Source: Candidatus Thorarchaeota archaeon (GTDB taxonomy: Archaea; Asgardarchaeota; Thorarchaeia; Thorarchaeales; Thorarchaeaceae). Taken from it: a DNA stretch of 64,000 nucleotides. Under the pieces are notes generated by a model. That model did not search any database and had not been told where the DNA came from. It was given only the letters and a program-made list of their open reading frames with translations. Positions 48,190 through 54,163 of the stretch are shown one piece after another. The stretch lies in assembly GCA_048882045.1 (NCBI GenBank), contig JBHLRZ010000011.1:1-64000 (forward strand), in the 5' to 3' direction. The number at the start of each line of letters is the position of its first letter. Position 1 is the stretch's first letter. The translations under genes were made by a program, and so were the position numbers.

Positions 48190-48274
48190 AATTGCCAGCC
48201 TGCTACCATTCTGTTGAATTATGTACTTGGTCACAATCTTTATGTGAGAATCAAGAGCCGAACGATTTACCGGT

Positions 48275-48298
48275 GCTCAGGTAGCCAAGCCTGGTATG
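48275..48298 (+). pseudogene. 5' fragment of a disrupted tRNA-Ser(GCT)
   Basis: GCTCAGG-TA-GCCAAGCCTGGTATG; acceptor strand complements CCTGAGC at 54153-54159; upstream promoter matches that of the intact tRNA-Ser. Confidence 0.8.
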
Positions 48299-48348
48299 AT
48301 TCCTAGTCAATGCTTATCTTGGAGTTGCATACTAAAGATTCGAGGTTT

Positions 48349-48930
48349 ATGGGAGCGCCTTTCATCAAACTATTCTATAATTATGGAGCACCTGAAAGAA
48401 AGGAGATCGATGTGACAACCCTAGAGATAGGATGGAGTCCCTATGGGAAACAAGTAACTTACATTGACTTTTCAGGATTGACTGGGAGTGATTTGATTTG
48501 GGGACTTTCAGTCAAGGGTCCGGAAATTCGTAAATTGGACCTCTCTCCGCTGGCTACTTGTCCCAACCTTCGAAATGTGAATATTGAGTACAATCCTAAA
48601 TTGAAGAAAGTAGACCTGTCTCCTCTGTCAAGAAGTGACACTCTTCAGATTGTAAAAATCTTGGCAAATTCTAAACTAGTTGATTTGATACTCCCAAGCA
48701 CTCCTTCCCTTAGAGAACTGAGAATATCAGGAAACGGCTTAGAACAGATAGATATCAGTCCCTTAGTTGTCTGTGATATACTCACAATATTCTCTATCGA
48801 CGAGAGAATATCAATACTTATGGATTCGCGTTTCAAGAATGATACTAATCTGCCCAAATCTATTCAACAAATCCGCGATCGAGTGATATGGAAAAATCCC
48901 CTGTCTAAAGAGAATGGAGCACGAGTGTGA
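48349..48930 (+). CDS. Leucine-rich repeat protein
   Basis: LDLSPL/VDLSPL/IDISPL repeats; ATG 48349 after GAGGT. Confidence 0.8.
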   Translation: MGAPFIKLFYNYGAPERKEIDVTTLEIGWSPYGKQVTYIDFSGLTGSDLIWGLSVKGPEIRKLDLSPLATCPNLRNVNIEYNPKLKKVDLSPLSRSDTLQIVKILANSKLVDLILPSTPSLRELRISGNGLEQIDISPLVVCDILTIFSIDERISILMDSRFKNDTNLPKSIQQIRDRVIWKNPLSKENGARV

Positions 48931-49018
48931 ACTGCTGAGCTGTTTCTTGCTTCTAATTCAAGACAACCTGTCCATGAACCTTGTTCATCCCATCATCCTT
49001 GAGAAGACTCACTAATCA

Positions 49019-49046
49019 AGACTTATCTTGGAGTTGTGTTCTAGAA
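49019..49046 (+). repeat. 28-bp direct repeat, copy 1
   Basis: AGACTTATCTTGGAGTTGTGTTCTAGAA, identical at 50367-50394; 15-bp core also at 48313-48327. Confidence 0.9.
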
Positions 49047-49060
49047 GGCAATAAGGGTGT

Positions 49061-49642
49061 TTGAACGTGAGGCGTGCGATTCAGCTTATTGGCATCCTAT
49101 TCGCTGTAGTAGTCTTGGTACTCACTTTCTCTCAAAACCTCGGGGAAATCCAATACCTGTTAGCATTTCTAGTATCACTTGCAATCATAGTAATTTCATA
49201 CGTAATTTCTAGGAGTGCAAGCGATAAGGAATCGCCCAAGTATTCCAAAAGGCAAATTGACCGTATGCTCCGCGCTGAGGAGAAACGCGTAGCAGAGAAA
49301 AAACCTTGGAGAACTCCCTTACGAGAATATGAGCTAGGTCCTCTTTCTAGGGAAATTGATCGGATAGAACTCGAAACAGTGATACAGAATCCATCTATGG
49401 CAGAGGCCTATTCATTCAGAAATAGACTTGAAACGATGATACTATCAGTCGCGAGAAGGAGTATCGACGCGGGAACCGAGATATCGATGAATGAACTCTG
49501 TCAGTTGACTGGACTTGACTTTAAGACGACGAAACAGATGCTGGATTATGTTGGCCGTAGGAGAGGATTCTCCCATAAATCACGGAAGGTTGGTCCTGAC
49601 CCAAGACAGGCAATGATTCAATTCTACTCAACCAGAAAGTAG
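49061..49642 (+). CDS. Hypothetical membrane protein (2 TM) with possible C-terminal HTH
   Basis: Two N-terminal hydrophobic helices; ISMNELCQLTGLDFKTTKQML. Confidence 0.65.
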   Translation: MNVRRAIQLIGILFAVVVLVLTFSQNLGEIQYLLAFLVSLAIIVISYVISRSASDKESPKYSKRQIDRMLRAEEKRVAEKKPWRTPLREYELGPLSREIDRIELETVIQNPSMAEAYSFRNRLETMILSVARRSIDAGTEISMNELCQLTGLDFKTTKQMLDYVGRRRGFSHKSRKVGPDPRQAMIQFYSTRK

Positions 49643-49775
49643 CTTTGGTTAGAACGAATCAAAACTTATGTTGAAATTGTATTCTAAAAGGGGGGTCAAA
49701 GAGAATGGGATGCGAGTACTGTGAATCAGTGGGAAATGTGTTTCCTAGGTTATAATGATTCGGAGATGAGCCTTA

Positions 49776-52138: not shown

Positions 52139-52153
52139 TTCAAGAAGACAAAT

Positions 52154-52267
52154 TGGCGCTGGGGGCGAGATTCGAACTCGCGAGTGCATAGCACACTGGA
52201 TGTTTGCAGAATGCTGGATCAGCTATCATTAGCAATCCAGCGCCCTACCAGGCTAGGCTACCCCAGC
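52154..52267 (-). tRNA. tRNA-Ser(GCT) with 28-nt intron at 37/38 (52202-52229), CCA encoded
   Basis: GCTGGGG/CCCCAGC acceptor, CTGGA/TCCAG anticodon stem, TTGC/GCAA BHB helix, long variable arm, G73. Confidence 0.93.
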
Positions 52268-52412
52268 TTGAGCAATCGGTTCGGAATCCCAATTCTCTCA
52301 TAAACATTGTGACCGAACCTCATCTATTTGTGAAAACACATAAATCACGACCCTCGTAGAGATGCCTTGTTCAGCGGAAATTGATGTAGAGAGTGAAGCT
52401 TTATGCATACTT

Positions 52413-52493
52413 GCCGGGGTGGCTGAACGGTTAAAGCGCCTACCTGAAAAGTAGGTTTCTACGGATATGTGGGTTCGAATCCCACCCCCGCAA
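52413..52493 (+). tRNA. Atypical class II (Ser-like) tRNA with GAA anticodon and imperfect acceptor stem; possible pseudogene
   Basis: CCTAC-CTGAAAA-GTAGG anticodon arm, 13-nt variable region, GTGGG-TTCGAAT-CCCAC; only 5 of 7 acceptor pairs form. Confidence 0.65.
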
Positions 52494-52523
52494 GATGTTT
52501 CAGCACAACTTCTTCTCATTGTT

Positions 52524-53996
52524 CTACTTCAAGGAGAACCGACGCTGACTTACCTTCTTCCCATTCTCACGCACGAACTTCTCCAATTCATTTTTTGAAA
52601 CCTGATATATGCCATCGCCGAGCTCAAATTGGACGAGATCATGGCTATTGCTAATTGCCGAGGAATAATCAGGAACCTCAACAGATTCGGTTTCAGAAAC
52701 CCATTCCATTATTTGAGGCTTTGATACCTCGATATAGGATGATTTGACAATGTCTGATTCGCTTTCCATGGCTATTATTCCCGCCAATTCGAGAAGCTGA
52801 AGAAGAATGTTCAATCTCTTAGTGTTCTTCCCAGAACCTGGAAGATATCCAGACTTCTTACCGAGTGTTTCCTGTAATGATTCACGAGTATATTCATCTC
52901 TCATCTGGAACAAAAGATGAATGTGGGAACCAAACCAAGTTCTGAGTAGATGAACTCTTAGTGTTTCTTTGGCATCAAGAGGGACTCCCCAATCCATGCT
53001 GGTGACAAAGCTGACTAGAGGAGGGCTTGGTTGCCATCCATCTTGATTTTCAGAGAGTAAATTGATCGACTCCCAAAATGACAGACATGTTCTGACATTC
53101 TTTTGCGAAACACCCACAACAGATGAAACATCTGAAAGCATGACTGGTGTTCTATCCCGTTCGTACATCGCTGTGATTACCTTCAAGGTTTCAATTTGCT
53201 TATCTAGAACTAAATTGTGACAGGGAATAGTTTCTCTTGCCGGAGTGTCACTGTAATCTCTGGATACTCTAACAGCTTTCAGTGATGCATCAAAACTAGA
53301 ATCTAATGTTTCTTGAACGGGATCTTTTGGTGCTTCTAGTGAAGAATCTGTATGTCTGGCAGAGTCGTCCTTTAATTCCAACTGACTAAGTAATTTCTCA
53401 TTCTGTGAGATATCAGAAGTCAGGTTGTAGATGTCACTTGGAGGGTCGAAACTCCCACCTTCCATTCCGAGACTTTTCAAGATTGGGTTCACATTGATCA
53501 CGAGGATGCGACCATCTTCTTCCTTTCTGATAACACCAGAAAGAAGACCAGACTCTAGAAATGTCCGTTCAAATTGCCGGGCAACCTTATCGGTGACTCC
53601 ATACTGTTGACCTATGAGGTTTCTAAGATAGAGAGGATTCTTGATTCTGGATCCTTTAAATCTTGTATACATTTCTCTGAACTTCTCCGGATTCAGGAAA
53701 GTCAGGATTCTGACTATTCTCTGTTGGGACTCTGACAAGGGCATTCGGAGAGAACGTCCTAATGGAGTCATTTCATAGTTGCCATTGTTTTGCTTGATGA
53801 GACCATACATTCCCATTGCACCTACTGCACTACCAGCACTCATACTATGAGGTGTTGTATATCCCATAATTGTTGTAAGACTGACTCGATCAACCTGTGA
53901 TGCAGGTGAAAGGTCAGTAAGCCACTCTTCACATTTCGCGATTGTGTATCGGGGAAATGTGATTGTTTTAGCGCGTTTCTTAACCACGATATTCAC
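52524..53996 (-). CDS. Hypothetical protein with two DUF5343-like winged-helix modules
   Basis: YGLI.....YEMTPLG...FL.P..F..MY..F module and a second analogous module ending LLELAGII, joined by an acidic linker. Confidence 0.6.
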   Translation of the reverse strand: MNIVVKKRAKTITFPRYTIAKCEEWLTDLSPASQVDRVSLTTIMGYTTPHSMSAGSAVGAMGMYGLIKQNNGNYEMTPLGRSLRMPLSESQQRIVRILTFLNPEKFREMYTRFKGSRIKNPLYLRNLIGQQYGVTDKVARQFERTFLESGLLSGVIRKEEDGRILVINVNPILKSLGMEGGSFDPPSDIYNLTSDISQNEKLLSQLELKDDSARHTDSSLEAPKDPVQETLDSSFDASLKAVRVSRDYSDTPARETIPCHNLVLDKQIETLKVITAMYERDRTPVMLSDVSSVVGVSQKNVRTCLSFWESINLLSENQDGWQPSPPLVSFVTSMDWGVPLDAKETLRVHLLRTWFGSHIHLLFQMRDEYTRESLQETLGKKSGYLPGSGKNTKRLNILLQLLELAGIIAMESESDIVKSSYIEVSKPQIMEWVSETESVEVPDYSSAISNSHDLVQFELGDGIYQVSKNELEKFVRENGKKVSQRRFSLK

Positions 53997-54085
53997 GTTC
54001 CTGCTTGCTAAAATAGCTAGCGTTCGTTACATATGGCTTAAAGTACTAGCGTACGTATTTAAAGGTACCGCTCAATATCAACGAG

Positions 54086-54163
54086 TACTGATAGCTAATC
54101 CAGCCGTCAGCAAACATCTAGTGTGCTCTGCACTCGAGAGTTCAAATCTCTCCCTGAGCGCCA
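54086..54163 (+). pseudogene. 3' fragment of a disrupted tRNA-Ser(GCT): intron plus 3' exon with CCA
   Basis: TA|CTGATAGCTAATCCAGCCGTCAGCAAAC|ATCTAG-TGTGCTCTGCACTC-GAGAG-TTCAAAT-CTCTC-CCTGAGC-G-CCA, collinear with the intact copy. Confidence 0.88.

What the first reader, a model, noticed from the sequence alone, without database searches (positions are those of the whole stretch)
48229..54163. tRNA-Ser(GCT) split by a 5.8-kb island that carries an intact, inverted homolog of the same tRNA
Seen: a 5' tRNA piece at 48275-48298 (GCTCAGG acceptor strand plus D arm) and a 3' piece at 54086-54163 (28-nt intron, variable arm, T arm, CCTGAGC-G-CCA). Their acceptor strands pair 7/7 with each other and differ from the intact copy (GCTGGGG/CCCCAGC), so they are halves of one gene. 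About 12 nt, including most of the anticodon, are missing. The intact minus-strand tRNA-Ser(GCT) at 52154-52267 has a homologous intron (23/28 identical). Its promoter matches the one before the 5' piece at 21/23 bases (GGTCACAATsTTTATGwGAGAAT at 48229-48251 and 52292-52314). No integrase or att duplication is visible. Established: tyrosine-integrase elements usually restore the target tRNA by duplicating part of it. Inference: here the native gene was destroyed and replaced by a full homolog inside the island, which could make the island essential. An alternative is a multi-piece trans-spliced tRNA.
Basis: partly seen in the sequence, partly recalled or inferred. Interest (0 to 1): 0.85.

Follow-up and report, generated by a model that had tools for sequence, protein, structure and literature searches.

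The report
Broken serine tRNA with inverted spare
In an Asgard (Thorarchaeota) archaeon the native serine-tRNA(GCT) gene has been cut in two, and a slightly altered whole copy sits backwards between the halves; the same layout, or most of it, recurs in several relatives, in most cases beside remains of an RNA-guided nuclease element aimed at that tRNA, which points to a "cut the essential gene, supply a resistant spare" process.

Summary
Observation confirmed and not an assembly error: contigs from two studies bridge both junctions. The native tRNA-Ser(GCT), uninterrupted at this locus in 44 of 50 placed relatives, is broken after nt 24 and resumes at nt 37. The inverted copy is the only intact Ser(GCT) in this 93%-complete genome. 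Trans-splicing fails: no middle piece, no complementary leader.

The layout recurs, whole or in part, in G022, G001, G071, G062 and an unplaced G020 contig. In four of these the leftover D-arm piece (nt 8/9 to about 24) directly follows a TnpB element end, where a guide lies, and the inverted spare mismatches it. The window's break falls in the expected TnpB cut zone, but it carries no nuclease or guide RNA.

Best reading: repair of a targeted cut captured only the spare (replacement about 0.9, TnpB as cause about 0.5). Only the roughly 170-bp spare unit is essential, not the 5.8 kb. This scan noted a similar TnpB/spare case at tRNA-Asp 7 kb away, which gave me the lead.

The parts
48229..48251 (+). 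Promoter of the native tRNA-Ser(GCT) gene
   Evidence: 21/23 identical to the spare's promoter, only such pair in the genome; same type and 27-nt spacing as in sister genome G004
48275..48298 (+). Dead 5' piece of the native gene, nt 1-24 (acceptor strand and D arm)
   Evidence: ends where the guide-like piece of G020 C217 ends
48310..48337 (+). 28-nt cassette-head motif, copy 1
   Evidence: four copies, next-best genome score 20 against 35-40
48349..48930 (+). Cassette gene 1, short leucine-rich-repeat protein
   Evidence: PF12799
49019..49046 (+). 28-nt motif, copy 2
49061..49642 (+). Cassette gene 2, 193 aa, hydrophobic N-terminus, no family
49662..49689 (+). 28-nt motif, copy 3 (diverged)
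49776..50291 (+). Cassette gene 3, 171 aa, no family
50367..50394 (+). 28-nt motif, copy 4
   Evidence: same motif heads related LRR genes at other loci in G002 and G023
50417..52138 (+). Cassette gene 4, 573-aa leucine-rich-repeat protein
52154..52267 (-). Intact spare tRNA-Ser(GCT) with 28-nt intron; differs from the 5' piece at nt 4, 5, 13, 23
   Evidence: only intact Ser(GCT) found in G000
52292..52314 (-). Promoter of the spare
   Evidence: this promoter type heads 6 of 6 inverted spares against 11 of 36 forward genes
52413..52493 (+). Foreign serine-type (long variable arm) tRNA body with GAA anticodon and broken acceptor end; probable pseudogene
   Evidence: no homolog in 85 family genomes; nearest hit is a Ser(GCT) of another Asgard family, 75%
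52524..53996 (-). Accessory gene, 490 aa, apparent fusion of two winged-helix-like families; no nuclease or recombinase signal
54086..54163 (+). Dead 3' piece of the native gene, nt 37 to CCA, with intron 54088-54115
   Evidence: acceptor pairs with the 5' piece; body closest to G004

Best explanation
The native tRNA-Ser(GCT) between SRP RNA/IF2 and the EF-1alpha operon was cut just after its D arm and lost 12 nt; the break was sealed by a segment carrying a compact, inverted promoter-plus-tRNA unit from a close relative (shown: layout, sole intact copy, relatedness). The likeliest cutter is a TnpB whose guide equals nt 8/9-24 of this tRNA, as seen at this locus in relatives; the spare escapes through D-arm changes (inferred). 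Repair that anneals the broken left end to the donor's 16-nt guide copy would copy spacer and spare but not the nuclease lying to its left, giving a nuclease-free product whose 5' piece ends exactly at nt 24 (inferred). Single-gene cassettes probably accumulated in the spacer afterwards (order inferred). Because the spare is inverted, recombination with the dead pieces can only flip DNA, never delete the spare, so the state is locked in (inference).
For: Uninterrupted forward gene in 44 of 50 placed relatives; inverted spare in G000, G022, G001, G071, G062 in separate clades, plus unplaced G020 C217. G022: IS605/IS607-type TnpB gene (PF01385, PF07282) whose right end, fixed by four copies, is followed at once by nt 8-23, 28 nt, the inverted spare and a 16-nt 3' remnant. 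G020 C217 and G071: D-arm nt 9-24 directly behind the conserved end of the Asgard TnpB family (profile E 3e-41 and 4e-6; G020 78% over 237 nt to the G000 TnpB 3' end); G001 weaker (E 1.4) but with the same end motif. The spare differs from its own piece or guide at nt 13 in 5 of 5 cases and at nt 9 in 4 of 5. Flanks of this TnpB family match tRNAs in 10 of 56 distinct cases against 0 of 168 shuffles (four of the ten are one Asp event). TnpB guides are about 16 nt and cut 15-21 bp from the TAM (PMC8612924), which maps to about nt 23-29. No target duplication, integrase or Cas1. Same three-part layout with TnpB at tRNA-Asp on this contig.
Against: No TnpB gene or guide scaffold in the window; none of the three TnpB copies in G000 has a Ser guide. 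G062 has the inverted spare and 3' remnant but no guide or scaffold. No complete Asgard-type TnpB gene with a Ser guide and spare was found. TnpB remnants are frequent near this locus without a Ser guide (G066, G089, G070, G008), so they may simply land in dead pieces. At tRNA-Asp the spare matches the 14-nt flank perfectly, so resistance there would rest on the TAM. Nt 13 varies widely among ordinary forward genes too. An archaeal TnpB tolerated most single mismatches (10.1101/2023.03.06.531077). Guide position, TAM and activity of this family are untested, and PMC10691335 suggested the guide might lie upstream of the GTTCACTCA motif.
Confidence: 0.5

Rival explanations
1. A recombinase acting in trans, or the unknown machinery that builds this lineage's integrase-free tRNA cassette arrays, inserted a cassette whose cargo is an inverted whole tRNA into the D-loop/anticodon region; TnpB elements later hopped into the dead 5' pieces as safe sites.
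For: The gene is a two-sided hotspot: displaced promoter-plus-5' pieces ending near nt 13-18 in G049 (three in tandem), G077, G082, G071, and displaced 3' pieces in G015, G024, G052, G077, G083, G084. The window's 3' piece starts in the anticodon loop, the classic crossover site (PMC8371274). Window and G062 lack any TnpB trace.
Against: Site-specific recombination is conservative and restores the gene (PMC8371274); here 12 nt are lost and nothing is duplicated. It does not explain why four TnpB ends share the nt 8/9 register or why the pieces behind them stop at nt 20-27. No tyrosine recombinase found in G000 (genome 93% complete).
Confidence: 0.3
2. Nuclease-independent: an inverted duplication of the tRNA unit (template switch, or homologous replacement from a relative with an inverted gene) made a long hairpin-prone inverted repeat, which was resolved by deleting the middle of the native copy.
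For: Each spare's body resembles its host clade (window spare closest to sister G004, 0.86; G022 spare closest to G012, 0.93). In G022 the unit is only about 230 bp. Plain inversions occur here (G053; Lrp orientation differs between G000 and G004).
Against: Pieces and spare each carry their own compensatory acceptor pairs and 17% divergence while the dead pieces show almost no decay, so both alleles diverged while working, which a recent self-duplication cannot give. Gives no reason for the shared breakpoint or the TnpB ends.
Confidence: 0.14
3. The pieces are exons of a trans-spliced (tri-split) tRNA that is still used.
For: Pieces are nearly undecayed, the acceptors pair, the 5' piece keeps its promoter, and a TATA-like TTTAAA lies about 25 nt before the 3' piece, though it is palindromic and also fits the divergent ORF.
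Against: No middle piece outside the intact gene; trailer-leader duplex -16.6 kcal/mol against -19.9 for shuffles (81% of shuffles as good or better), whereas split tRNAs have 13-14-bp GC-rich stems and BHB motifs (PMC3218864); an intact gene is present; relatives' pieces have other lengths.
Confidence: 0.03

Closest known systems
TnpB/omega-RNA (OMEGA) systems of IS200/IS605 and IS607, e.g. ISDra2 (PMC8612924)
   Same: In relatives the 16-nt flank behind the element end equals a chromosomal target; the break lies in the 15-21-bp cut zone.
   Different: Target is an essential tRNA and a recoded spare sits beside the guide; the window has neither nuclease nor guide.
Asgard aCas1-associated TnpB groups Cas1H-Asgard-1/-2 (PMC10691335)
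   Same: The GTTCACTCA motif downstream of tnpB is the scaffold seen before the D-arm pieces in G020, G071 and G001.
   Different: The word tRNA does not occur in the paper's main text and it places the possible guide upstream of the motif; no Cas1 (PF01867) found in G000.
tRNA-integrating elements with SSV- or pNOB8-type tyrosine integrases (PMC8371274)
   Same: Foreign DNA at a tRNA gene, displaced tRNA fragments, 3' piece beginning in the anticodon loop.
   Different: No integrase, no att duplication, 12 nt lost, gene not restored in place, replacement whole and inverted.
Caldiarchaeum subterraneum tRNA-Thr(GGU) locus (PMC3293823)
   Same: Displaced 5' tRNA fragment upstream of an intact variant; intron and sequence changes brought in by an insertion.
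   Different: There the insert encodes a predicted recombinase; the word inverted does not occur in that paper, and no 3' remnant around an inverted copy is described in the passages read.
Split and tri-split archaeal tRNAs (Nanoarchaeum, Caldivirga, Staphylothermus; PMC3218864)
   Same: 5' and 3' parts of one tRNA kilobases apart on one strand.
   Different: No complementary leaders, no BHB junction, middle missing, intact gene present.

Membership tests
Trans-spliced split tRNA | All parts of the mature tRNA encoded in pieces | tested here: not met
   No middle piece outside the intact gene
Trans-spliced split tRNA | Complementary trailer/leader forming a BHB junction | tested here: not met
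   Duplex no better than shuffles
Trans-spliced split tRNA | Own promoter for each piece | tested here: inconclusive
   Clear for the 5' piece; only a palindromic TATA-like word before the 3' piece
Trans-spliced split tRNA | Mature joined RNA | not testable with these tools
   No RNA holder listed
Tyrosine-integrase element in tRNA | Integrase gene | tested here: not met
   None in island or genome (93% complete)
Tyrosine-integrase element in tRNA | Direct att repeats and gene restored in place | tested here: not met
   12 nt lost, no duplication; homology only in inverted orientation
TnpB/OMEGA element | tnpB gene at the locus | tested here: not met
   Absent from window; present at the matching locus of G022
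TnpB/OMEGA element | Omega-RNA scaffold followed by a flank matching a target | tested here: not met
   Not in window; met in G020 C217, G071, G022, weakly in G001
TnpB/OMEGA element | Lesion within 15-21 bp of the TAM | tested here: inconclusive
   Break after nt 24 fits if the guide starts at nt 8/9; TAM and cut site of this family unknown
TnpB/OMEGA element | RNA-guided cleavage | not testable with these tools
   Needs biochemistry
Integron cassette array | IntI integrase | tested here: not met
   No PF00589 hit
Integron cassette array | attC hairpins closing each cassette | not tested
   By eye the 28-nt motif heads genes rather than closing them; no attC model was run

The most novel reading that the evidence does not exclude
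Thorarchaeota carry natural toxin-antidote drives in which transposon TnpB nucleases are guided to an essential single-copy tRNA gene while an inverted, D-arm-recoded spare rescues the cell; the window is a recipient that gained the antidote alone, and repeated rounds of this would explain the unusual D-arm and intron diversity of this tRNA.
Probability: 0.4. Interest if true: 0.85.

Novelty: new variant of a known kind. Interest (0 to 1): 0.62.

Why it matters
If right, it shows RNA-guided transposon nucleases acting on an essential host gene in nature, offers a route by which foreign DNA becomes unremovable without an integrase, and makes the long-standing idea that tRNA genes change sequence and gain introns to escape mobile elements directly testable, with named guides, targets and escape alleles in the archaea closest to eukaryotes. 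Even without TnpB, the inverted-spare layout is a recurrent form of tRNA replacement that I did not find described in the papers searched, and one easily misread as a split tRNA.

Tried and rejected
Misassembly: rejected by bridging contigs. Trans-splicing: rejected. An active inversion switch between the two D arms: a flip would give an acceptor stem with two mismatches, so unlikely to be a working switch. ARAGORN with introns at a relaxed score gave 844 mostly false calls and was replaced by Rfam and a custom profile. Viral scan for the guide junction: 47 hits, none with the tRNA beside it. Metagenome scan for scaffold plus guide: 7 chance hits. No TnpB relative confirmed in viral contigs. 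G057 hit was coding DNA; 13 of 16 hits of the looser pattern lacked scaffold and tRNA context. ORF 490 as nuclease or recombinase: no support from Pfam, PADLOC, PHROGs, the atlas or gene context. The 28-nt motif as a dif-like site: resemblance from memory only, no symmetric left arm. No RNA holder listed. No joint showing an empty allele in four runs; contigs drop rare variants.
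Full report
OBSERVATION. Every element reported is in the sequence. A profile built from 22 relatives' genes, with no sequence from this genome, finds three Ser(GCT)-specific matches in G000: the intact minus-strand gene (E 3e-39), the 3' piece (3e-14) and promoter plus 5' piece (2e-9); the remaining hits are other tRNAs or weak. 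Numbering below counts from G1. Nt 25-36 are missing and nothing is duplicated at either junction. Contigs from two studies bridge both junctions without mismatch (X1 46304-49041 and 51569-54911; X3 48217-49041 and 51423-54913; X7 51569-55181), and two other assemblies hold the right half; most of these may share source samples with the window. The host is a Thorarchaeote, judged by the record titles of the same contigs and gene family. AGC plus AGT make up about 2.2% of codons in long ORFs and, by established wobble rules, need this tRNA.

THE LOCUS IN RELATIVES. The order IF2, SRP RNA, tRNA-Ser(GCT), zinc-ribbon gene, EF-1alpha is conserved. Of 50 genomes where orientation could be placed, 44 have an uninterrupted forward gene, including the sister G004. 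The gene is a hotspot at both ends: displaced promoter-plus-5' pieces in G049 (three in tandem), G077, G082 and G071, and displaced 3' ends in G015, G024, G052, G077, G083 and G084. One genome (G053) has a plain inversion of SRP RNA plus tRNA. Five (G000, G022, G001, G071, G062) have an intact gene inverted on its own, with leftover pieces in the native direction (both pieces in G000 and G022, one side in the others); an unplaced 659-nt contig of G020 shows the same unit. These lie in different clades or genera, and each spare's body resembles its own clade, so there were several origins. In the window both spare and 3' piece are closest to G004 (0.86, 0.84) yet differ from each other by 17%, with separate compensatory acceptor pairs, while the dead pieces show almost no decay. 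I infer the spare came from a close relative and the break is recent.

THE TNPB LINK. A scan note on tRNA-Asp 7 kb beyond the window prompted the test. In G022 a 401-aa TnpB ends at a right end defined by four copies and is followed immediately by tRNA nt 8-23, 28 nt, the inverted spare, its promoter, 30 nt and a 16-nt 3' remnant. In G020 C217 and G071, nt 9-24 follow, after one extra A, the conserved end of a second, Asgard-specific TnpB family; G001 shows the same junction with a decayed scaffold. This family occurs in 58 of 86 genomes, carries the motif described in PMC10691335, and its flanks match tRNAs in 10 of 56 distinct cases against 0 of 168 shuffles, using only G000 tRNAs as reference; four of the ten are the same Asp event. 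In all five cases with a piece or guide, the spare differs at nt 13; in four also at nt 9. A pyrimidine at nt 13 is in 5 of 6 inverted and 6 of 36 forward genes (p 0.003, overstated by kinship). ISDra2 TnpB uses a 16-nt flank as guide and cuts 15-21 bp from the TAM, which maps to about nt 23-29; the window's 5' piece ends at nt 24, as does the G020 piece. The tRNA-Asp locus on this contig has the same layout: 5' piece on plus at 71394, TnpB, intact copy on minus ending at 78677, 3' remnant on plus at 79609.

LIMITS. The window has no TnpB and no scaffold. No G000 TnpB has a Ser guide. G062 lacks a guide. No full-length Asgard-type gene with Ser guide and spare was found. TnpB remnants also sit near this locus without matching guides. 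The Asp spare matches its 14-nt flank perfectly. Nothing here shows cleavage. The replacement itself I put near 0.9; TnpB as its cause near 0.5.

MECHANISM. Shown: break after nt 24, loss of 12 nt, an inverted sole intact copy, recurrence, guide-position D-arm pieces in relatives. Inferred: a guided cut; repair from a donor allele, annealing at the 16-nt guide copy so that only spacer and spare are copied; later addition of cassettes; stability because homology between spare and pieces is inverted, so recombination flips rather than deletes, and a flip would give a two-mismatch acceptor stem.

THE REST OF THE 5.8 KB. Left part: four genes, two with leucine-rich repeats, each headed by a 28-nt motif found nowhere else in G000 but present ahead of accessory genes at other loci in five relatives, twice around one LRR gene in G002; probably a shared promoter, possibly an exchange site. 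Right part: a serine-type tRNA body with GAA anticodon and broken acceptor end, foreign to the family (a contig in X7 continues with an intact G-CCA end), and a 490-aa gene whose two halves match separate protein families, winged-helix-like by the atlas, with homologs in accessory clusters of at least one Thorarchaeote. G022 shows that cassettes are dispensable, so only the roughly 170-bp spare unit is essential.

RIVALS AND COMPARISON. Recombinase-made cassette insertion with later TnpB hopping (0.3), nuclease-free inverted duplication (0.14), trans-splicing (0.03; against the criteria). It works like the antidote half of a TnpB cut-and-rescue element but is not itself a TnpB element, an integrase island or a split tRNA by the tests above. 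Displaced tRNA fragments and TnpB guides from flanks are known; tRNA-directed guides paired with an inverted recoded spare were not found in the papers searched, although this scan has noted the Asp case. Verdict: real, new variant of a known kind, interest 0.62.

Noticed in passing
window 52413-52493: Serine-type tRNA body with a phenylalanine (GAA) anticodon and damaged acceptor end; foreign to the family. If it were ever charged it would misread Phe codons, but it looks dead.
   Followed up: partly
window 48310-50394: 28-nt motif heading four unrelated genes; also ahead of accessory genes at other loci in G002, G004, G012, G023, G077.
   Followed up: partly
L110:157-9904 (G049): Three tandem promoter-plus-5' pieces before the intact Ser(GCT); nt 13 is A, T, C in the pieces and G in the intact gene, as if each replacement brought a new variant.
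   Followed up: partly
L067, L072, L075, L111, L113 and others: Ser(GCT) genes of relatives carry extra introns in the D loop and/or T loop in a patchy pattern; some lack the anticodon intron.
   Followed up: partly
L259, L270, L198: Several TnpB flanks are the reverse complement of a word matching the start of the promoter type that heads the spare tRNAs; possible promoter-directed guides.
   Followed up: no
L239, L290, L190, L277, L185, L254, L179: TnpB flanks matching parts of other tRNAs (D arm, T arm, anticodon arm), several starting at nt 8.
   Followed up: partly
L166:2543-4216: The Asgard TnpB has glycine where the canonical RuvC-II glutamate is expected and candidate glutamates about 40 residues downstream (rearranged site, recalled from memory).
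   Followed up: no
window 46432-47514: The double-Lrp regulator gene faces the opposite way from its homolog in sister G004 and recurs at this locus in G058, G060, G061, G062.
   Followed up: no
L067:17480-17780, L071:1980-2370: Conserved small element just downstream of the zinc-ribbon gene in several relatives (promoter, short repeated peptide-like ORF, ending in a tRNA-3'-like word).
   Followed up: no
L073:2893-2979 (G024): Ser(GCT)-like body lacking 5' strand and a proper acceptor end, away from the native locus.
   Followed up: no
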